NCBI RefSeq assembly: GCF_009914755.1 | Contig: NC_060939.1 | DNA from: the human T2T-CHM13v2.0 reference genome, Homo sapiens | DNA: 64,000 nt | Strand: one strand, 5' to 3' | In this document: piece after piece, positions 1-11,144 of the stretch | Layout of the letters: each line of letters opens with the position of its first letter | How positions within the stretch are numbered: the stretch's first letter is position 1 | The notes under the pieces: model-generated | The model's input: the letters and a program-made list of their open reading frames with translations, nothing else | Database searches by the model: none | What the model was told of the DNA's origin: nothing | Translations under genes and position numbers: made by a program

Positions 1-209
1 GTCGGAAGTTCCCACACACCCCCATCAGGAGGTCTGACTCCGGCCACCTCCTGCCTTGCCTGAGCCTGTCCTGCTCGTGGCCCTCCCCTTCTAAGCCTGT
101 CTGAACACCCCTACCTTGGGGACCCCTCCTGTGTCTTCCTTCTCCAGGAAGCCCCTCTGATCCTCCCCCTCAGAGCTCTAGCCCTCCTCCAAGCTCCATC
201 CCTGCCCTA

Positions 210-3200
210 TCCCAGCCTTCCTATACAGCCCCACAAGTCAAAAAATCGTGACTAAAATGAAATATCTCCCTGACAAAAAACTAAAAAAAAAAAAAAAGAC
301 ACTGAAGTCTCAATTAAGACTAAAAAAAATTAAAAAAAAATAAAGTATCCTTTTTAAAAGTGGCCACTGTAAAGCCTCCAAAACCCATTCCATTAACTTA
401 AAAAACAAAAAAACCTATATAAGTAAATCAGTGGCCACTACCAAAACACAAACTAAAAACTTTACACTTATTAACAAAAAAATTTAAAAAAAAATTGAGC
501 CTTCATTTTCGCCTTAAAATTCTCCTATGTTTATAATTCAAAAAAAAAAAAAAATCCAACAAATGACACATACTAACCAACTTAAAAGCATTAATGCCGT
601 AATTCAACCCATGGAGAGTCTCCAACCTGAGTTGCCCTCTCAGGCCATAATCCCCCAAAATTGGCCTTTAATTATAATTAATCTAAAAGATTACTTTTTT
701 ACCATTCTTCTGACAAAACAAAATTTAAAAAAATTTACTTTTACTATACCAGCCATAAATAATAAAAAACCAGCCACCAGGTTTCAGTAAAAAGTGTTAC
801 GTCAAAAAATACTTAATAGTCCAACTATTTGTCAAACTTTTTTGTAACTCAAACTCTTCAACCAGTTAAACACAAGTTTTCAAACTGTTATTCATTATAT
901 TAATAATATTTTGTATACTACAAAAACAAAAACAAATTAACTATTACACATTTCTACAAGCAAAGGTTACCAACACAAGACTGACAATAATATCTAATAA
1001 AATTCAAACCTCTAATCCTTTCCATTACTTAAAAATGTAAGTTAAAAAAAACCACAAAAAATAAAAATTAAACATTAAAAACATTAAATAACTTTCAAAA
1101 ATTACTAAAAAATATTAAACTCGGCCAACTCTAGACATCCCTACTTATGCCATGTCAAATTTGTTCTCTATCTTAAAAAAAAATCCAAAATTAAATAATG
1201 AACATTAACTCCAAAGACAACTAAAAAAATTAATTAAAAAAAGTTCAGTCAACCCAAATAAATAAAATGAATCACTTAGCCCCACTCCAACTTTTAATTT
1301 TTACTACTACACATTCTCCAACAGACATTATTGTTCAAAATACAAATCTTATGAAGTGGTCCTTCCTTCCTTACAGCACAATTAAGACTTACATTGTACT
1401 TAAATCAAATGACTACATTAATTAGACAAAACTACAAATAATAAAATTATATAAAAATAACCCAAATAAAATAATTGTTCCTTTAAACAAAAAACAAATT
1501 AAACAAGCCTTTATCAATTCTGGAATATAACAAATTGGTCTTACTAATTTTATAAAAAATTATTGACAATCATTACCCAAAAACAAAAATCTTCCAGTTT
1601 TTAAAATTGACTACTTAAATTTTACCTAAAATTACCAAACATAAACCTTTAAAAAATACTCTAACGGTGTTTACTAATAGTTCCAACAATAAAAAAACAA
1701 CTTACACCAGACCAAAAAAACAAGTCATTAAAACTCAATGTCACTTAACTCAAAAAACAAAATTAGCTACTGTCATTACAATATTACAAAATTTTAATCA
1801 GCCTATTAACATTGTATCAAATTCTACATATATAATACAAACTACAAAAAAAGTTAAAACAGCCCTAATCAAATATCAAATATAATCAGTTAAACCAACT
1901 ATTTAATTTGTTACAACAAACGGTAAAAAAAAAAATTTCCCATTTTATATTACTCATATTCAAACACACACTAATTTACCAAGGCCTTTAACTAAAACAA
2001 ACAAACTAATTTACTAGTATCATCTACATTCATAAAAACACAAAAACTTCATGCCTTAACTCATATAAATACAACAAAACTAAAAAATAAATTTAATATC
2101 ACATAAAAACAAAAAATATTGTACAACATTACACCCAGTGTCAAATTCTACACCTGCCCACTCAAAAAACAAAAGTTAATCCCAAAAGTCTATGTCCTAA
2201 TTCGTTATGACAAATAAATATCACACATGTACCTTCATTTGAAAAATTGTCATTTGTCCATACAACAGTTAATACTTATTCACATTTTATATAAACAACC
2301 TACCAAACAAAAGTACTTCCCATATTAAAAAACATTTATTATCTTGTTTTACTGTCATAAAAGTTCCAAAAAAATTAAATAATAGGCCAAAATAGTGTAA
2401 TAAAACATTTCAAAAATTCTTAAATCAATAAAAAATTACACATACAACAAAAATCCCCTATAATTCCCAAATACAAACCATAATTTAAAAAACTAACACT
2501 CAAAACTCAATTAAACAATAAAAAGCATAACACTCCCCCAATACAACTTAATCTAACACTCTAAACTTTTTTAACATATATAAAAATCAGACCACTACTT
2601 CTACAAAACAACATTTTACTAATAAAAAAACCCACATAAAAAAACTAATTTAATTTAAAAAACATAAAAAATAAAAACATTAAAAAAAGCTTTACTTGTG
2701 TTTCACCAAAAAAAAAAAAATCAACTTCCTGTTTAAATACCCACTAAACATTTCAAATTCTACAATAAACCCATTAAAAATACAAAAACCCACCTCCACA
2801 AAAATACAAACACCACAATCAAGCATCATTAACTCACCAAATAAAATAATAACATCAAAAAAAACAAAGTCGCCATCCACCAAAAAAACAAAGCCACCAA
2901 CTTAAACACAATTAAAAAAACTAACACAGTTAACTAAAAAAAAACCCAAAAAAACACAAAAGTGACACAAACTCCAAAAAAATACTGTTTATGGCTTTAA
3001 TAATTATATCAACAATAGTAAGTATCCCCATGTCTACAAAAACAACTACAACTAATTATACTAAGCCTATGTACCTTTCCCACCCTTAATTCAAACAGTC
3101 ACATAAATAAATAATCCTATTAAAATATATATTAATAATACATGGGTACCAGGCCCCACAAATAATCGTTGCCCTGCCCAACCTAAAAATAATAATAATA

Positions 3201-3690
3201 TAAATATTTCCATTAAATATTATTATCCTATTTGCCTAAAAAAGACACCAAAATATTTAATACCTACAACCCAAAATTAGTAAAAGTACCTACTATCAAT
3301 ACCAATAAATTTACTTGTCACATAGTAAGTAAAATGTCACTCAAACCACAAATAATTTACAAAACTCTTCTTTTCAAAAATCATTAAAATCTAAACCTAA
3401 AAAAAAACCTTGCCCCTAAAAAATCAAAAGATCCAAAAGTCTTAGTTTAAAAAAATGTATAACTAATACTACAATAATACTACAAAACAATAAATTCAAA
3501 ACTATTATAAACTAGGCCCCTCAAAACCAATTATATTGTAATTCTATGGGCCAAACTCACTCGTGTTCGCAGGCCCCATCCATCTGGCCCATTAATCCAG
3601 CCTATAATAATAATTTAACTAAAAAACTAAACCAAATTTATAAAAACTTAAAATCACCCTATCCATAAAAATAAAATTAAAAAAAAATTT
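210..3690 (+). mobile_element. HERV-K(HML-2) internal fragment (end of pro, pol, 5' part of env), type 2, massively G-to-A hypermutated
   Basis: ORF 527-790 ([39 protein letters not shown]...[16 protein letters not shown]) is HML-2 RT with G-to-A changes. The YIDD motif reads YINN at 896-907 and Trp codons read TAA. The env start ATG reads ATA at ~2765, and the pol-env 292-nt segment is retained. Left boundary is approximate. Confidence 0.95.
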
Positions 3691-3696
3691 TTTTTT

Positions 3697-4353
3697 ACTA
3701 TGCGTAAATGTATGCATAGGCCAGATTTATACTTCTCTCCACCCAAACATCTCAGTGTAGTAAAAAGTAACAGAACAACATTGCCGCCAACATATCTCGC
3801 CTCCAGCCACAGGGCGGTTTTCTCCTATCTCAAAATAAAACGAATGTACAATCGGGTTTTACACCGAGACACTCCGTTCCCAGGGGCATACAAGAGATGG
3901 AGGCCTTCCTCTTACTAATCCTCCTCAACACAGACCCTTTATGGGTGTCGGACTGGAAGACGGTCAGGTCTTTCCCTTCCCATGAGGCCGTATCTCAGAC
4001 CGTCTCAGTGGGGAAAAACCTTGGACAATACCCAGACTTTCTTGGGCAGAGGTCCCTGCAGCTTTCCGCAGTGTATTGTGCCCCTGGTTAATCAAAAATG
4101 AAAAATGACAATAATTTTTACCAAAAATACTGCCCGTAAACATATTATTAACAAGACACATTCTACACAGCCCTAGATCCCTTAAACCTTAATTCTATAC
4201 AACACGTGTTTCTGTAAACACAGGGTTGAAACTAAAGTTACAAATGAACATCTCAAAACAATTATTCAGGGTACAAATCAAAATGAGGTTTCTTATGTCT
4301 TCCTTTTCTACATAGACACAGTAACAGTCTGATCTCTCTTTCTTTTCCCTACA
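3697..4353 (-). mobile_element. Partial LTR5 (LTR5B/LTR5A-like), U3 start to just past the TATA box, inverted relative to the internal fragment
   Basis: Reverse strand from 4353 reads TGTAGGGAAAAGAAAGAGAGATCAGACTGTTACTGTGTCTATGTAGAAAAGGAAGACATAAG, the LTR5 5' end. It stops after TATAAATCTGGCCTATGCATACATTTACGCATAGTA. Confidence 0.93.
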
Positions 4354-4922
4354 GACACCAGGCTTCCCTTCCCCTGGAGCAGCCAGACCTTCTGTGGTAT
4401 CTTGAGCAAGCGCCTGGTCCTGTCTGGGCCTCTGCAGACTCAAGGTCTGGTGCCTGACTTACACCCTGTTGTCATATCCTGCCATCTGGCCCCATATGGA
4501 GTCCTACAGGGGACTCTCAGACCCAGGCGTGAGCACTGGCTCAGGCCCCTCTCAGAGGTCTGGCGGCCCAGCATCTGCCCACGGGCCTCCTCTCCCCCTC
4601 CTTTTCTCCAGGCTCCTGCCTCTGCCACAGTTCCCTGGAGGTGGCCTCTAGCCTGGCCCAGGGGCTCACACACTCCTGAAGGAGGCAGGGCCAGACTCAG
4701 GCAAGGCCTTGGAGGACACATCCCAGTGGGCAGGGCCCAGCACTCTTGGGGTGGAACTACAGGGAGGAGAGGCAGGGCAATTGAGGCTTGAGGTGCCTGG
4801 CCTCACCCAAGGTGACCAGCCTGCTCCTTTTCCTCAGTCTCAGAGGGAGCAGAGGACGGAGGTGGGGAAGAGAGGCCAGGGACACAGTAGGGCTTGGTTA
4901 TGGATGATGGGGGGTCCTTGTG

Positions 4923-5297
4923 TGATATAATTAGGCTTTGTGTCTCCACCCAAATCTCATCTTGAATTATCCCCATTTTCCCCACCTGTCAAGGGAGAGA
5001 CCAGGTGGACGTAATTGGTGGATCATGGGAAGGGTTTCCCCCATGCTGTTCTCATGACAGTGAGTGAGTTCTCATGAGATCTGATGGTTTTATAAGGGGC
5101 TTTTCCTACTTGTTCAGCACTTCTCCTTCCTGCCACCTCGTGAAGTTTCCTTGCTTCCCCTTCACCTTCCGCTGTGATTGTAAGTTTCCTGACACCTCCC
5201 CAGACATGCTGAACTGTGAGTCAATTAAACCTTTTTCTTTTACAAGCTATCCAGTCTCGTGCAGTTCTTTATAGCAGTATGAAAACAGACTAATACA
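4923..5297 (+). mobile_element. MaLR solo LTR, THE1 family (THE1D-like)
   Basis: Starts TGATAT...CACCCAAATCTCATCTTGAATT, contains GAGTTCTCATGAGATCTGATGGTTTTATAAG and AACTGTGAGTCAATTAAACC, ends GACTAATACA. Confidence 0.88.
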
Positions 5298-5369
5298 CTG
5301 TCCCTGCTGAGGGCTGCCCGGCTGGGCTCTCCCTGCATTGGCACCTGGGTTGCCAGTAGCACATTATTT

Positions 5370-6735
5370 GGTCTAACAGTTTTTGTTTATCATTCTGAAA
5401 CTGAGCTTATCTAATACATTGATAAATTATTTCAAAGGTATTTTTATAGTTCAAATCGCTTCACTTTTACCCTGACACGTATAAATGACTAGGAATGACC
5501 TTCAGATAGCGTTTAGCAACTGTAACCAATCTGACAATAATGTGTTCATCAGGTACCTGTGGATTAAATCACATACTGGCATATTTAAACTGAAAGTAAG
5601 TCTGAAAAATAAATGTACTATATTAACTCAAATACCACTCTTTGTGTAGGTATTTTGTCATATGTTTAAGAAAAAGCTAAAAAGAATGGAAATCCTATGA
5701 CAATAACTTAAGTCTTTCTTCAAAGTGCATGCAGTCTTTTGCAGTACCTCATTCAGCCAAGTATTTGTTCTCTTATTCAGTATAAGGCAGCTTTCAATTT
5801 GCTTGGAAGGCAACATTGGAAGGTTAGAGTTCAGCAGGAACATAGAATTTTAAAATGTGACTTCAACTGAATAAATTTGAATTTCTCTAGGGAGTAAAGA
5901 ATCAAAATACCTACTTAAAGACTACAATATGTGATAATTATTTTTAAAGTAATTATGATTAAACCTGGTAGGTTTTCCCGAAATGAAAAAAAAAAAAACA
6001 GTTCTAAAACCAAAGCTGATTTTTAGAAAATGTGAAAATGTAAATCAACCCTATCCATAATAGATTCTCTAAAACTTTATCTTACAGTCACTTTCAAATA
6101 ACTATTCAAAAATGTAACTGCTATATTAACGTCTTAAAATAATTTAAAACATTTTAAAATATGAATACTGTAGTTTAAAACAAAGAATCTAGGGGAAGGA
6201 AAAGTAGACAAAGAAATGCCAATTCCAGTCCAAAGCTGTATTTGCCAAGTTTTCTTAGAATGACTTTTACCGATTTATGAATTCTTATAAACAGAATGCA
6301 TAATGGAAATACTGATTTTTGTCTAAAGTGGCATTATTGACTGCTTCTGTGATGCTACTGTAATGTAATACATTATTAAATTGTTTCAAGGTGCTGTTTT
6401 GCCTAAAAATTTTGTGTGTCTTGAAAACTATAGTATTGGGTATTGAGACTCTGCAAATTCTCGGCATGCTTGGCATGAGGTAATCGGTTTTTATTCTTAC
6501 AAAATTGTAACTATGTAAGTGTGTTTATTAAAAGAACACAAACTAAAAAAGTTAACAGAAATTAAAGTTGTGGGATGAAAAAGTTACAGGATAAAAAAAT
6601 ACTGTGGAAAAGTGGCAAAAAAAAGTTGTGGAAAAAAAGTAAAAAAAAGTTTTATGAAAAGTTATTTTAAAAAGTTATGAAAAATTAGTTACAGGATTTA
6701 AAAAAAGTCATGGGATAAAAATAAAAATAAATAAA
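5370..6735 (+). pseudogene. AT-rich retroposed 3'UTR segment of the chr15 GOLGA core duplicon (ITSN2 3'UTR-derived) ending in a degenerate poly(A) tail
   Basis: Resembles GOLGA6/GOLGA8 3'UTR sequence from recall. An A-rich decayed tail at ~6530-6735 abuts GOLGA2-like 3'UTR. The GOLGA2-ITSN2 UTR fusion is the known chr15 core element. Left boundary is approximate. Confidence 0.6.
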
Positions 6736-7355
6736 AGCAGGCCCCTGTCAGCATAAGCCTGGAGAAGTGGGTCTGGAGTCTTCACCCCCACCATGTCCCT
6801 ACAACCCCTCCCCAGTCAGCCCTTTACCATTAGGGTAGCAAGACAAGACCCTTGTCTAATGGAGGGAGACAAACAGACCCTTTACCACCTTGACCAAGGC
6901 TGAGTCCTTACATTTCTGGATGATGATGTTTGTTATTTAAGAGCCAGAGGTTGGTGGAGTTGGTTTGTTTGGAGGAGGTCTGACGGCCTTCTTACTCTCA
7001 CCAAAGCAACTTTTCCCTCAGGGGGGCTCCCATCTTCTTACTCAGAGAGGCAGCTGAGGCGGGACAGTGGAGTTAACTGTAGACCAGGCCAGGGCACAGG
7101 CTGCTGGGGGTGGCCCCCCTTCCCCCGTGTACATACTGTAGCTGTGTAACATTCTGTATCGTACCTAGCGGAGGTTGCAGCTGGCATATGAGGAAGAGGT
7201 TCTTATAATTATTCGCGGCTGGGAAACTTATTTATTGCTAGCATAGGAGCGAGGAAGCAGGCGGGGATGGGGTCATGGCTGCCTGGTGATGGGACTCCTG
7301 TTTTTTGTTTTTTGTTTTTTGCTTTTGATTTTGGAATAAATGGATTTAGCCATAC
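6735..7355 (+). pseudogene. GOLGA2P: GOLGA2-derived 3'UTR with polyadenylation signal
   Basis: AAGCAGGCCCCTGTCAGCATAAGCCTGGAGAAGTGGG resembles the sequence just after the GOLGA2 stop. AATAAA is at 7335-7340. It lies convergent with the DNM1 3' end, as at the ancestral 9q34 locus. Confidence 0.65.
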
Positions 7356-7359
7356 TGCT

Positions 7360-8229
7360 CGGCCTGGTATGTTCCCATTTCCCTCACTGGGTCCTGCAGT
7401 TTGTCCCACTGAATGAGGAGCCCCAGAGTGTCTCAGCATGTCCAGCTGGGCTGTTGGGGACCTTCCAGGCCTGTTACCTGTATGCTGCCTGGTGACACCT
7501 GGTGGATTTCATGGGGACTGCCATGGCGCCTACGGAGTACACTCTGGCCCTGACAGCCAACTGGTTGAGAAGCCTGATCTAGCTGTGGCAGGGAAGACAG
7601 ATACCAGTGCCCAAGGGCACTGACTTCCATCCACCCCAGGTGTCTTCCGTTCTGTCCCCCTGCCTCCCTCTCCTGTCTGCACCGGGTGGCCTGTCTGTCC
7701 CTCCAGAGTGCCGGCTGCCCCGCAGGTTCCCTCCAGGCTGAGTTCAGGGCCCTGTCCCCTAGTGGCCAGAGCTGGCTTCACAGGGTAAGAGCCAGCTAAG
7801 CTCCAGGGACTTTCCAGGAAAAGTGTCCCTTGAAAAGGGTGTGACCTTTTCACTGCTCCCAACAGCACCCTAAAAATGGCTTGGCCTTTTCCATCCCCTG
7901 AGCTCCATAGAGAACACAGCCAGCAGAGGACACATTCTCTGTCATCCAGAAATGGGTTTCTCAGCCAAGGGACAGCAGGACTGGTAGAGACTGTCAGGCC
8001 ACACAGCTGCCTGCACAGCACCGCCATGCTTGGCCAGAAGGGCGGGAGGGATGGCGGGGGCTGGCTGTCCACAGGCCGCGCATGTCCCGGAAGCTCACTG
8101 GAGGTGGTGCACTTTGGAGGGGCGATGTCAGGAGACAGCTTCCTCTTGCTGGGCTACAAGATTCCACAAGCACAGCACGGGACTGATTCCCAGTGCTAGA
8201 GGTGAGGCAGTTGGCCACGTATATATATG

Positions 8230-8659: not shown

Positions 8660-11144
8660 AGGGCCGGGGAGGGGAGGGCGTAGGTGTGGGCGTGGCAAGG
8701 TTCCTGGAAAAGAGGGGCTGGAAGGGAAAGGGGAGGGAGATGGAGGGAGAAGCCAGAGCTTCATAGGTAGTGCCTGGGGACTGCGGCGGCCCTCCCTACC
8801 CCACACACGCTGGCCTGTCTCATGGAACCCAGGCAATCCACCCATCCACCCACAGTTCAGACCAATGCCAGCTCCCTCGGGCTTCCCTCTTCTGTGGTCC
8901 CCATGTCTTCCAACGCACTGGCCCAGGGCCACCTCTTGCTTGGAGAGCCCCATCCAACAGCCACCAGACCTGATAGAGAAGGAACACTGATTGAACCAAA
9001 ATGGTGGAGCTATAAGGGATGGCTGGCTGGAGTGAATGCCAGAGGCCCCTCTGGGCCATCAGAAAGCCCAGGGTCCTCTGAGGAACCCTGGGGAAGGCAG
9101 GGAGGGCAGGTAGCCGGATGCCATTGGCCATAGACTTCTAAGTCTAAGAGGGGAGCCTTAACTGGTTGGCGGGGGGCTGCAGGTTACATAGGTGAGGCTG
9201 GGCCCTTCCTGCTGGGAAAAGCAGAAGAGGGAGACTCCGTGGCAGGAAAGGGAAGTGAGCTCTCTAGGCGGAGCTCAGCTGGGCCAGCAGCACTATTGGC
9301 TGAATAGCACAGGCAACCCCTAGAAGCAACAGGCCAAGGTGCGTGAGCCTGCTGGCCAGCAGTAGTGCTTCAGCAGGGGCCAGGGACCCTGCCTTCAGTC
9401 GCACGCTAGCAGCTATCATGGTACCTGGGAGGGAGGGAAGGGGGCTGTGTGTCCTTCCATGGCCTATGAAGTGTGTTGTGGGATGACCGCGTGTATAGGA
9501 CTCTCAGGCTTTTATCCTAGATCACCACTGGATTGCTGACAGATAGAGGACGTGGGACCGTGACTATCACCCCTAATCTGCCGTGGATTTGGCTCTTGGC
9601 ACTCCCAGGCTGGGAGCTGGATACCTGCCCTGGCAGCATGACTCAGACTGCGTGACAGGTACGGCGTGCCCAGGATGATGTTCCCAGGCCTCTGGCCGCC
9701 TGAGTCCAGCCCCCCACACAACCCCCTCCAAGCTCCCAGCCCCTACACCATAAACCATGAGCTCTGTGCCCTCTCTGATGGTTCCACAACTGCCACCTTG
9801 GGCATGGAGCCTGTTGTAAGAGCCCCCAGGCTCAGCCATGGAGACCTTGAGCAGTGGCACTGAGTCCCATGGCTCACAGGGAGCAAAGTGAGACAGCCAG
9901 CAGCACAAGGACAGAAAGAGGAAAGAGCAAGTCTGCAGCTCCAGAAGGGAGGGGCAGGGAGCCTGGCTCTGAGGCTCCAGGTATGCCCCCTGTGTGGAGC
10001 TGGGGCAGCGGGGCAGGCAGACCATTCATGCAGCAGGCAGTGAGGCATGTACCTACCATGGCTGACGCTCCTCAGGGGCCACTGATAGTGATTCTGAAAG
10101 ACAGCTTCAAATCACATGGCAGGTCCCATGCATGGGTGGGGCAGGCCTGGGGGTGGGGGACACACACACGCACATGCCGGAGTGTGCACACACATGCTGT
10201 GAGGCCCCACGGCCCGCATGCACACTCACACACATGCCCACAAACAACACGCATACGTCGCCCTCCCCGCCACCTCCCAATGCCCAGCACCCTCACCGGC
10301 CGGCACGTGCCGCATGGATCTGGGGCGTGCAGCCACTCGGCACGCTGAAGCACATGCGTGGGCAGAGTCACAACACAGATGCTCACCCGCACACAGAGGC
10401 ATTTGCACCAGCTCCCTGCACACTCGTGCCTGGCGTGCTCAGAGGACCACCCATGCTGCTCAGGGAGACAGGGCTTGCTCACTAATGTCCGGCTGTCATT
10501 TCTCCACCTAAGAGCCTTCCATGGCTCCCTACTGCCTACAGCGTTGAATCCCAACAAGTCATACTCTTTGGACTTTGAAGGTTCTCCACCCTGTGCCCCA
10601 CCCTCCCCACAGAGCTCTTCCTCATTCTGTCTCTGTTCCCTGCTTTGGCCAGTGGCTATCCGCGATGTGACCCACACTACACCTCTGCCCACACTGCAGC
10701 TCTTTACCCAGTTGCCCTCCAGTTCCTCACCACGTATGCCTATCTCAGTCATGCCCCAGACTGCATTGAAGCCAGGCTGCCTTGAAGAAGCTCTCCCAGA
10801 CTGCCCTTTTCCCCAAGGCAGGGTCATGATTTACCAAAGGTTTCGTGTGTGTTAGCAAGACTGGAGTCGGAGCAGGCATCAAACTTTACATCCCATATGT
10901 CACACCTCACCATAGATCTGGGTGCCAAATAGCCTGAAGAGTCTGAACTCACGTTGGAAGTTAGCAAAGTGCTCCTACAGCCGCATCTGCAGTTAACATA
11001 GTATCCCTATGGCCACTGTCTCCCTTGATCCCCACAGCCATCCTAGGAGAAAGGCAGAACGTCATTTGCTAGAAGGGATGCTGAGGCTCTGGGAGGGAAA
11101 GGGACTTGCCTAAAGCCCCAGGGTGAAGCAGCATCTCTGGACTC
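8660..11144 (-). repeat. DNM1P: Inverted duplicate of DNM1P intron (pairs with 41369-43855)
   Basis: Reverse-complement identity along the segment. Near-identical spurious ORFs occur on opposite strands (10072-10827- vs 41634-42404+; 9573-10025- vs 42486-42938+). Confidence 0.97.
10057..10093 (-). pseudogene. DNM1P: DNM1 alternative 37-nt exon (short 'xb' tail, RITISDP)
   Basis: ctttcag|AATCACTATCAGTGGCCCCTGAGGAGCGTCAGCCATG|gtaggt, encoding (R)ITISGP*. Confidence 0.88.

What the first reader, a model, noticed from the sequence alone, without database searches (positions are those of the whole stretch)
210..4353. Deamination stays on one physical strand across an inversion in a HERV-K fragment
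Seen: pol/env lie on + and the LTR piece lies on -, yet both have lost G on the + strand. In LTR sense, 4081-4180 reads GGTAAAAATTATTGTCATTTTTCATTTTTGATT where LTR5 (recalled consensus) has GGTAAAAGTCATCGCCATTCTCCATTCTCGATT, so the changes are C-to-T on the viral PLUS strand. Established: APOBEC3 normally edits minus-strand cDNA, giving G-to-A in viral sense. Inference: the edited molecule was one continuous single strand, starting exactly at the U3 terminus (as PPT-primed plus-strand strong-stop DNA does), running to the TATA/R border, then switching template onto env and copying back to pro. It would be a fixed, aberrant reverse-transcription intermediate with one proper att end (4353) and one ragged end (~210).
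Basis: partly seen in the sequence, partly recalled or inferred. Interest (0 to 1): 0.85.

Follow-up and report, generated by a model that had tools for sequence, protein, structure and literature searches.

The report
Hypermutated HERV-K fragment with inverted LTR
An ancient retrovirus fragment on human chromosome 15 carries cytosine-deaminase damage on one physical DNA strand straight across an internal inversion, which suggests it is the fossil of a botched reverse-transcription product that was edited before it entered the genome.

Summary
Window 207-3690 (+) is HERV-K(HML-2) from the end of pro, through pol, into env. Window 3696-4353 (-) is the first ~690 nt of an HML-2 LTR.

- **Editing, internal part:** at sites invariant among natural reference copies, 290 of 439 G are A, against 12 of 543 C read as T.
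- **Editing, LTR:** on the same window strand, 22 of 76 G are A, against 2 of 93 C read as T. These sites are non-CpG.
- **Control:** seventeen control LTRs show 0-6 such changes each.
- **Flanks:** host flanks are not edited.
- **Ends:** the LTR ends exactly at its canonical TG terminus. The other end is ragged, with 3-nt microhomology, no target-site duplication and up to 28 nt of target lost.
- **Paralogues:** two chrY copies share all three junctions.

Best reading (0.6): a chimeric reverse-transcription product, deaminated before insertion, with one end joined at its att site and the other by end-joining. His "TATA/R border" is not supported, because the break lies ~125 nt upstream of the AATAAA. 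The locus is catalogued as 15q25.2, but I found no description of this feature.

The parts
1..206 (.). Host left flank, not edited
   Evidence: Collinear with the empty paralogue at chr15:75.72 Mb (85% identity). Against that paralogue G>A is 16-19 and A>G 22-23, C>T 12-14 and T>C 26-27, measured over about 1.4-1.5 kb that ends at position 206.
207..209 (.). Left junction: 3-nt microhomology (CTA) shared by host and viral sequence
   Evidence: The empty paralogue reads ...ccctgcccta then gaca..., and natural proviruses read ...ACTATCCCAG at this point.
207..3690 (+). HERV-K(HML-2) internal fragment, heavily G>A hypermutated: end of pro (G-patch part), all of pol, and about the first 300 codons of env
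   Evidence: Blastn identity of 76-77% to 9 proviruses. Of 439 invariant G, 290 are A. The fragment is collinear with the references and has no large rearrangement. Domain map from a natural copy: the left end falls just after RVP and before G-patch; then come RVT_1, RVT_thumb, RNase_H, Integrase_Zn, HERV-K_REC and HERV-K_env_2. The left and right ends correspond to about nt 4204 and about nt 7886 of the chr6:42.72 Mb provirus, whose 3' LTR starts at about nt 8964. About 1.1 kb of env plus the polypurine tract is therefore absent (coordinates).
3688..3696 (.). Inversion junction: a run of nine T. Env homology ends at 3690, LTR homology starts at 3696, and 3691-3695 are five unassigned T (five A on the - strand)
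   Evidence: Side-by-side reading with natural env and LTR copies. The two chrY copies have one extra G before the T run.
3696..4353 (-). Edited C>T in LTR sense, which is G>A on the window + strand
   Evidence: Identity of 80-86% to 17 LTRs. Of 76 invariant G, 22 are A; of 93 invariant C, 2 are T. By position the G>A counts are 8 of 43 in 3696-4055, 14 of 29 in 4056-4295 and 0 of 4 in 4296-4353. The break lies about 125 nt upstream of the AATAAA.
4352..4353 (+). LTR terminus: CA-3' on the window + strand joined directly to host DNA (TG... in LTR sense)
   Evidence: All 14 reference LTRs examined start at the same base. Two of them are preceded by a G-rich purine tract plus 2 nt, and those 2 nt are absent here. 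Host sequence resumes at 4354 and matches the empty paralogue.
4354..5353 (.). Host right flank, not edited
   Evidence: 90% identity to the empty paralogue. In the first 200 nt, 3 of 53 G are A, against 22 of 76 in the LTR (p = 0.001).

Best explanation
The element is a single chimeric product of faulty reverse transcription of an HML-2 virus. A virion-borne cytosine deaminase of the APOBEC3 kind edited it while it was single-stranded, before it entered the genome.

The window's - strand reads 5'->3' as follows:
- plus-sense LTR from nt 1 to about nt 690;
- about five extra A;
- minus-sense env, pol and the end of pro.

Inferred steps:
1. Plus-strand DNA primed at the polypurine tract stopped two thirds of the way through the LTR.
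2. That DNA became connected, through a short A/T overlap, to the env-to-pro minus-sense strand. It could equally happen if an internally primed plus strand jumped onto this displaced plus-strand DNA and ran off its 5' end.
3. Both parts of the - strand were exposed as single strands and were deaminated: 66% of conserved C in the env-pro part and 29% in the LTR part.
4. Second-strand synthesis produced a double-stranded LTR terminus.
5. That terminus was processed and joined as an att end, probably by integrase. The ragged pro end was joined by the cell's end-joining with 3-nt microhomology, without a target-site duplication and with up to 28 nt of target lost.

Shown here: the anatomy, the polarity and extent of editing, the clean flanks, the exact terminus and the missing duplication. 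Inferred: every step of the synthesis route, and the use of integrase.
For: 1. Same-strand editing on both sides of the inversion, at non-CpG sites, far outside the range of 17 control LTRs.
2. Editing is confined to retroviral DNA. The flanks show no G>A or C>T excess against the empty paralogue.
3. Both pieces are HML-2 and about equally far from one natural provirus once G>A is set aside. My arithmetic on the counts gives about 5.7% for the internal part and about 7.0% for the LTR, against the chr6 provirus.
4. The LTR ends exactly at the canonical terminus, with the two extra bases of the unintegrated end removed.
5. The opposite end has microhomology and no duplication.
6. The junction is a short homopolymer filler next to a 3-nt match with env. 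That is the pattern expected when reverse transcriptase adds untemplated bases and then switches template (my recall of the enzymology, not a tool result).
7. Editing in the LTR is higher away from the inversion junction (14 of 29) than near it (8 of 43; p = 0.01). This suits displacement from the polypurine-tract end and is the opposite of a resection gradient.
8. The arrangement and all three junctions are shared by the two chrY copies, so it is old and is not an assembly error.
9. Published background, from passages I read:
- The stretch just 3' of a polypurine tract is normally single-stranded only briefly (PMC1635257).
- APOBEC3G-exposed HIV-1 cDNA is reported to show defects in plus-strand transfer and integration. 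I saw only the review text and the title of the cited paper, in PMC7760323.
Against: - No step of the synthesis route is observable in a fossil.
- The first 58 nt of the LTR carry no edit (0 of 4 invariant G), and 3996-4055 carries none (0 of 9). The LTR strand was therefore not uniformly exposed.
- The LTR editing rate is much lower than the internal one (29% against 66%; p = 2e-9). The two parts had different histories, which would also suit two separate molecules.
- Dinucleotide preferences agree only roughly. Internal: GA 0.97, GG 0.76, GC 0.63, GT 0.34. LTR: GA 8 of 18, GC 6 of 12, GG 3 of 11, GT 0 of 9.
- The exact TG end could result from end-joining after the loss of 2 nt.
- The 28-nt target loss rests on a single paralogue that is 10-15% diverged and may carry its own insertion.
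- Neither breakpoint lies next to a deaminated position, so nothing ties the strand switch to breakage at uracil.
Confidence: 0.6

Rival explanations
1. Two separately made and separately edited viral DNA fragments were ligated by cellular end-joining before or during insertion. One was a pro-env duplex edited on its minus strand. The other was an LTR piece edited on its plus strand.
For: The editing rate differs strongly between the two parts (66% against 29%). A short filler plus microhomology at the junction is also typical of end-joining. The left end was clearly joined without integrase.
Against: This still needs single-stranded plus-sense LTR DNA, so it explains nothing more simply. It also needs two fragments of the same virus type to meet, and the edited strands to end up on the same physical strand (a 1 in 2 chance). 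Nothing in the sequence excludes it.
Confidence: 0.17
2. A resident HML-2 LTR or provirus already sat here in minus orientation. Later a double-strand break inside it captured a hypermutated HERV-K cDNA fragment. The LTR was deaminated in place on the single strand exposed by end resection.
For: Resection to the right of a break at about 3696 would expose the window - strand, which gives the observed polarity (inference). The exact LTR terminus next to host DNA would then be an ordinary integration junction.
Against: - Editing is lower next to the junction (8 of 43) than further away (14 of 29), the reverse of a resection gradient.
- Editing stops at the LTR terminus: 3 of 53 G in the next 200 nt of host.
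- The left host flank shows no C>T excess.
- Rates of 29-48% of C deaminated fit virion-type hypermutation. They are far denser than break-associated mutation clusters, as I recall them.
- The cDNA fragment would have had to land by chance in a resident LTR of its own family.
Confidence: 0.07
3. An ordinary hypermutated provirus was inserted normally, and a later chromosomal inversion plus deletions turned part of its own LTR around.
For: Inversions and deletions are common in old proviruses and in this duplication-rich region (gene table given with the finding).
Against: A provirus's own LTR would carry G>A in LTR sense. After inversion that would read as C>T on the window + strand. The observed counts are 2 of 93 C>T against 22 of 76 G>A. 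The U3 terminus abuts host DNA that is collinear with the empty site. A simple inversion of a 3' LTR segment does not produce that.
Confidence: 0.02
4. A LINE-1-mediated insertion of a HERV-K-containing RNA, either with twin priming that inverts one part or from an already rearranged source locus.
For: Twin priming is a known source of inversions in retrotransposed copies (recalled). There is a short A/T run at the inversion junction.
Against: - Twin priming copies one RNA from two primers. Editing of both cDNAs would then be G>A in RNA sense on both sides, so it would flip physical strand at the inversion. It does not.
- There is no terminal poly(A) and no target-site duplication.
- No unedited source with this junction turned up. 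The best non-paralogous hits in the genome are ordinary proviruses at 75-80% identity (40 of 349 candidates scored).
- The insert ends exactly at an LTR terminus.
Confidence: 0.03

Closest known systems
APOBEC3-hypermutated HERV-K(HML-2) proviruses. I recall K60 and K(I) as the published examples; their source papers are not held here. In-silico traces are reported in PMC2531183, where I read passages.
   Same: Same virus group. Massive strand-specific G>A against relatives, confined to viral DNA and acquired before integration.
   Different: - The editing is far denser: 290 of 439 conserved G.
- The context order is GA > GG > GC > GT. PMC2531183 reports a GG preference for genomic HERV-K copies.
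- The LTR is inverted and is edited on its plus strand.
- Only one att end is present, and there is no target-site duplication.
Defective HIV-1 proviruses with inversions and/or hypermutation in treated patients (PMC9278108, passages read; PMC12657518, passages read)
   Same: Structural errors of reverse transcription (misaligned or aberrant strand transfers) that still become integrated. Hypermutation and rearrangement coexist in the same collections of proviruses.
   Different: The passages I read do not report on which strand the editing lies across an inversion. They describe proviruses with two LTR ends. Here one end is not viral-terminal, and the inverted piece is the start of the LTR itself.
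15q25.2, Yq11.23a and Yq11.23b entries of the HML-2 catalogue (Subramanian et al. 2011, PMC3228705; table passages read)
   Same: This is the same locus and its two chrY copies. The chr15 entry is listed as shared down to orangutan.
   Different: - The catalogue spans are 3,345 bp (chr15) and about 3,200 bp (chrY), shorter than the 4,147 bp found here. The inverted LTR was probably not counted (inference from lengths).
- The words 'hypermutat', 'APOBEC' and 'inver' do not occur in that paper's main text.
Plus-strand C>T changes in the betaretrovirus MMTV lacking Rem, attributed to AID (PMC6692512, passages read)
   Same: A relative of HML-2 in which C>T on the proviral plus strand has been seen alongside G>A.
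   Different: There the rates are about one change or fewer per 1.1-kb clone, the changes sit in WRC motifs, and they are mixed with G>A in the same region. Here 29% of conserved C in a 658-nt piece are changed, there is almost no G>A in LTR sense, and the edited piece is inverted.

Membership tests
HERV-K(HML-2) endogenous retrovirus | Nucleotide homology of the internal region and the LTR to HML-2 proviruses, in the gene order pro-pol-env | tested here: met
   76-77% identity to 9 proviruses over 207-3672 and 80-86% to 17 LTRs. A collinear natural copy carries RVP, G-patch, RVT_1, RNase_H, Integrase_Zn, HERV-K_REC and HERV-K_env_2. The locus is listed as HML-2 15q25.2.
APOBEC3-type hypermutated retroviral DNA | Large strand-specific excess of G>A over C>T, A>G and T>C against relatives, not explained by CpG decay | tested here: met
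   No invariant G of the LTR lies in a CpG.
APOBEC3-type hypermutated retroviral DNA | Editing confined to the viral DNA, so it predates integration | tested here: met
   Flanks compared with the empty paralogue. The only outgroup is a paralogue 10-15% diverged.
APOBEC3-type hypermutated retroviral DNA | G>A in viral plus sense throughout, reflecting minus-strand deamination only | tested here: not met
   The internal part meets it. The LTR shows the opposite, C>T in LTR sense: 22 of 76 against 2 of 93. This is the finding.
APOBEC3G footprint specifically | GG preferred over GA, GC and GT | tested here: not met
   Internal: GA 111 of 114, GG 60 of 79, GC 49 of 78, GT 30 of 88. LTR: GA 8 of 18, GC 6 of 12, GG 3 of 11, GT 0 of 9. 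Near-saturation blurs the internal figures. The enzyme or enzymes are not identified.
Canonical integrase-made provirus | Both ends at LTR termini (TG...CA) and a short target-site duplication | tested here: not met
   One exact terminus at 4353. The other end lies inside pro, with 3-nt microhomology, no duplication and up to 28 nt of target missing.
LINE-1 twin-priming or processed insertion | Terminal poly(A), a long target-site duplication, and both arms being cDNA of one RNA, so that editing polarity flips at the inversion | tested here: not met
   No terminal poly(A). No duplication. The polarity does not flip.
Break-associated APOBEC mutation cluster (kataegis-like) | Strand-coordinated C>T that is densest at the breakpoint and runs into whatever DNA lies beside it | tested here: not met
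   Editing is lower near the junction than away from it. It stops at the LTR terminus. No complementary signal appears in the left flank.

The most novel reading that the evidence does not exclude
This locus is a germline-fixed fossil of a copy-back reverse-transcription intermediate. Polypurine-tract-primed plus-strand DNA was displaced, deaminated as a single strand, and fused to minus-sense env-pol DNA. The product was then inserted through a single att end. If so, three things would follow in vivo. Displaced plus-strand strong-stop DNA is a real deaminase substrate. Editing polarity can time an inversion relative to integration. Heavy deamination and strand-switch rearrangement may be two outcomes of the same failed reverse transcription.
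Probability: 0.35. Interest if true: 0.7.

Novelty: new variant of a known kind. Interest (0 to 1): 0.6.

Why it matters
Deaminase hypermutation is normally read as a mark of the minus strand only. Here the polarity of the damage works as a clock. Because it does not flip at the inversion and stops at the host borders, the inversion must have existed before the DNA was double-stranded and integrated.

This gives a rare natural record of three things:
- plus-strand retroviral DNA exposed as a single strand and edited;
- a strand-switch error of reverse transcription;
- insertion through one viral end, completed by cellular end-joining.

The same simple test, editing polarity across an inversion, could be applied to the many inverted, hypermutated HIV-1 proviruses already sequenced and to other endogenous retroviruses. 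That would show whether such inversions arise during reverse transcription or afterwards. The value is mechanistic and historical; nothing suggests the fragment has a function today.

Tried and rejected
- **Post-integration inversion:** rejected on polarity.
- **LINE-1 twin priming:** rejected on polarity, on the missing poly(A) and on the missing duplication.
- **Autointegration:** rejected by reasoning. It joins LTR termini to internal viral DNA, whereas here the terminus meets host DNA and the internal junction is not at a terminus.
- **Transcription-linked or CpG decay in place:** rejected, because the changes are non-CpG, reach 29-66% of sites and stop at the borders.
- **Strand switch forced by breakage at uracil:** not supported. 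Neither breakpoint lies next to a position that could have been deaminated.
- **Carrier paralogues on chr15:** none found. There are only two chrY copies and one empty paralogue. Each search scored only 40 of 349 to 7202 first-look candidates.
- **Papers not held:** the three papers most likely to have described hypermutation of this locus (Lee et al. 2008, Armitage et al. 2008, Anwar et al. 2013) are not held. I cannot say whether they cover it. No supplements were read.
- **Literature searches:** searches found only two open papers that name 15q25.2 together with HML-2, and neither listing links it to hypermutation. Of these two I read only PMC3228705. Searches found no open paper that reports editing polarity across a proviral inversion.
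- one Fisher test used a wrong denominator (8 of 52). One search corrects it (8 of 43).
- **Controls not run:** I did not run a positive control on a normally oriented hypermutated provirus. I did not screen the genome for further cases.
Full report
**What is there.** Reading the window and its composition shows a 3.5-kb block that is extremely poor in G on the + strand. GC skew goes down to -0.85 and G+C to about 0.22-0.30. A block with milder skew follows, and then ordinary G+C-rich DNA.

Searching the window's own genome places two kinds of homology:
- Window 207-3690 (+) matches the internal part of HERV-K(HML-2) proviruses at 76-77%.
- Window 3696-4353 (-) matches the first ~690 nt of HML-2 LTRs at 80-86%.

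A collinear natural copy maps the internal part. The left end falls just after the protease core domain (RVP) and before the G-patch. Reverse transcriptase, RNase H, integrase and the Rec/env start follow. The right end lies about 300 codons into env.

Measured on the chr6:42.72 Mb provirus, the fragment runs from about nt 4204 to about nt 7886. About 1.1 kb of env and the polypurine tract are missing (coordinates). The fragment is collinear with three natural copies and has no large rearrangement.

The reference LTRs are 965-1001 nt long, so only the first two thirds are present. The break lies about 125 nt upstream of the AATAAA that 8 of 10 references carry. None of the 10 has TATAAA at the break.

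I built no consensus. I compared the query pairwise with natural copies, and separately at sites where the natural copies all agree.

Pairwise counts on the window + strand:

| Region | References | G>A | A>G | C>T | T>C |
|---|---|---|---|---|---|
| Internal | 9 proviruses | 400-434 | 17-23 | 29-50 | 37-61 |
| LTR | 17 LTRs | 36-46 | 6-15 | 7-12 | 3-14 |

With CpG sites removed, the LTR still gives G>A 34-42.

Counts at invariant sites:

| Region | G read as A | C read as T |
|---|---|---|
| Internal | 290 of 439 | 12 of 543 |
| LTR | 22 of 76 | 2 of 93 |

For the LTR the asymmetry gives p = 5e-7, and no invariant G of the LTR lies in a CpG. When each of the 17 reference LTRs is treated as the query in turn, it shows 0-6 G>A and 0-6 C>T. 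The query is therefore far outside that range (22 of 76 against a pooled 27 of 1321).

In its own sense, the LTR has lost C to T. On the physical + strand, both pieces have lost G to A.

**Editing happened before insertion.** One paralogue on chr15, at 75.72 Mb and in the opposite orientation, carries both flanks without the element.
- The left flank shows G>A 16-19 against A>G 22-23, and C>T 12-14 against T>C 26-27.
- The right flank shows G>A 15 against A>G 8, and C>T 19 against T>C 26.
- In the first 200 nt to the right of the LTR, only 3 of 53 G differ as A (p = 0.001 against the LTR).

The damage therefore stops at both borders of the retroviral DNA.

**The ends.**
- All 14 reference LTRs examined begin with the same 12 bases after unrelated flanks. 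In two of them a G-rich purine tract and two further bases precede the start.
- The query LTR begins at exactly that base. It lacks the two extra bases, and host DNA follows at once. On the window + strand a CA-3' is joined to host DNA, as integrase would leave it.
- The left end lies inside pro and shares 3 nt (CTA) with the host. There is no target-site duplication.
- Where the element sits, the paralogue has 28 nt that the window lacks. This rests on one paralogue that is 10-15% diverged, so the target loss could be anywhere from 0 to 28 nt.

**The inversion junction.** Env homology continues, with G>A changes, up to 3690. LTR homology starts at 3696. Between them lie five T, inside a run of nine. 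The chrY copies have one extra G there.

**Age and copies.**
- Two chrY copies, 97-98% identical to the window, have the same left and right junctions letter for letter. They also have the same inverted arrangement.
- The HML-2 catalogue lists the locus as 15q25.2, shared down to orangutan, along with Yq11.23a and Yq11.23b.
- Its spans of about 3.2-3.3 kb suggest the inverted LTR was not counted. Its main text contains none of 'hypermutat', 'APOBEC' or 'inver' (table passages read).

**How it most likely arose.** The window's - strand is the deaminated one. Read 5'->3' it is plus-sense LTR nt 1 to ~690, about five A, then minus-sense env to pro.

Deaminases of this kind act on single-stranded DNA. 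The stretch just after the polypurine tract is normally single-stranded only briefly (PMC1635257, passages). A plus-sense LTR with 29% of its conserved C changed is therefore not a product of normal reverse transcription.

The simplest account is a strand-switch error:
1. Plus-strand DNA primed at the polypurine tract stopped early and was displaced.
2. It became linked through a short A/T overlap to the env-pro minus-sense strand.
3. Second-strand synthesis ran off the 5' end of the LTR piece and created a double-stranded att terminus.

Which 3' end did the switching cannot be read from the sequence.

Two details lean towards displacement from the polypurine-tract end:
- Editing is higher away from the junction (14 of 29 in 4056-4295) than near it (8 of 43 in 3696-4055; p = 0.01).
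- The homopolymer filler is of the kind reverse transcriptase adds at template ends (recalled enzymology).

Against a uniform single strand, the terminal 58 nt (0 of 4) and 3996-4055 (0 of 9) are unedited. The LTR rate is also well below the internal rate (p = 2e-9).

A review I read in passages cites work, seen by title only, that APOBEC3G-exposed HIV-1 cDNA has defects in plus-strand transfer and integration (PMC7760323). That makes a link between heavy editing and a failed strand transfer plausible, but nothing here tests it.

**Rivals.**
- End-joining of two separately edited fragments cannot be excluded. It still requires edited plus-sense LTR DNA.
- A resident LTR that later captured a hypermutated cDNA and was edited on resected DNA gives the right polarity. 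It predicts the wrong gradient, editing that runs on into the host, and a mirror signal in the left flank; none of these is seen.
- A later chromosomal inversion, and LINE-1 twin priming, both predict that the polarity flips at the inversion. It does not.

**Which enzyme.** The order of contexts is GA > GG > GC > GT in the interior (0.97, 0.76, 0.63, 0.34). In the LTR the counts are GA 8 of 18, GC 6 of 12, GG 3 of 11 and GT 0 of 9. This is not the GG preference reported for genomic HERV-K copies (PMC2531183, passages). I leave the enzyme unnamed.

**Novelty.** Hypermutated HML-2 proviruses and inverted defective proviruses are both known kinds. The locus itself is catalogued.

I found no open paper that describes its hypermutation, its inverted LTR, or the behaviour of editing polarity across a proviral inversion. 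The three papers most likely to matter are not held, so prior description cannot be ruled out.

I rate this a new variant of a known kind. It is of moderate to good interest as a natural record of plus-strand editing and one-ended insertion, and as a simple test that can be carried over to existing HIV-1 data.

Noticed in passing
window 207-3690: Against each of three natural proviruses, the hypermutated interior has 27-30 small deletions of 4-18 nt and only 2 small insertions. Possible causes are later slippage in the A-rich runs that editing created, copying errors on a damaged template, or alignment noise in low-complexity sequence.
   Followed up: no
window 207-4353; L022 and L023 (chrY, C24:24.61 Mb and 26.23 Mb): The two chrY copies gave near-identical comparison results against the window, to within one substitution and one gap. 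They sit about 1.6 Mb apart in the same orientation. They carry flanks 94-98% identical to the window, so a block larger than the element moved between chr15 and chrY after the insertion.
   Followed up: partly
L036 / L048 (chr15:75.72 Mb): This is an empty-site paralogue in inverted orientation. It is 85% (left) and 90% (right) identical to the flanks and holds 28 nt where the element sits. Those 28 nt begin with the same four bases (GACA) as the right flank, so the difference could be a small deletion or duplication unrelated to the insertion.
   Followed up: partly
window 4923-5298: A ~375-nt interspersed repeat. 36 of the 40 scored hits from many chromosomes match this part at 82-86%. The family was not identified.
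   Followed up: no
window 207-3690 and 3696-4353: The editing context order GA > GG > GC > GT, with GC as high as 0.5-0.63, fits neither the textbook GG nor the textbook GA footprint alone. It may reflect saturation, several enzymes, or an ancestral hominoid enzyme with different taste.
   Followed up: partly
L014 (chr8:140.17 Mb): This locus holds two LTR copies within about 1.6 kb, in opposite orientation, both matching the query LTR at 80% and 83%. I did not examine whether it is another inverted arrangement.
   Followed up: no
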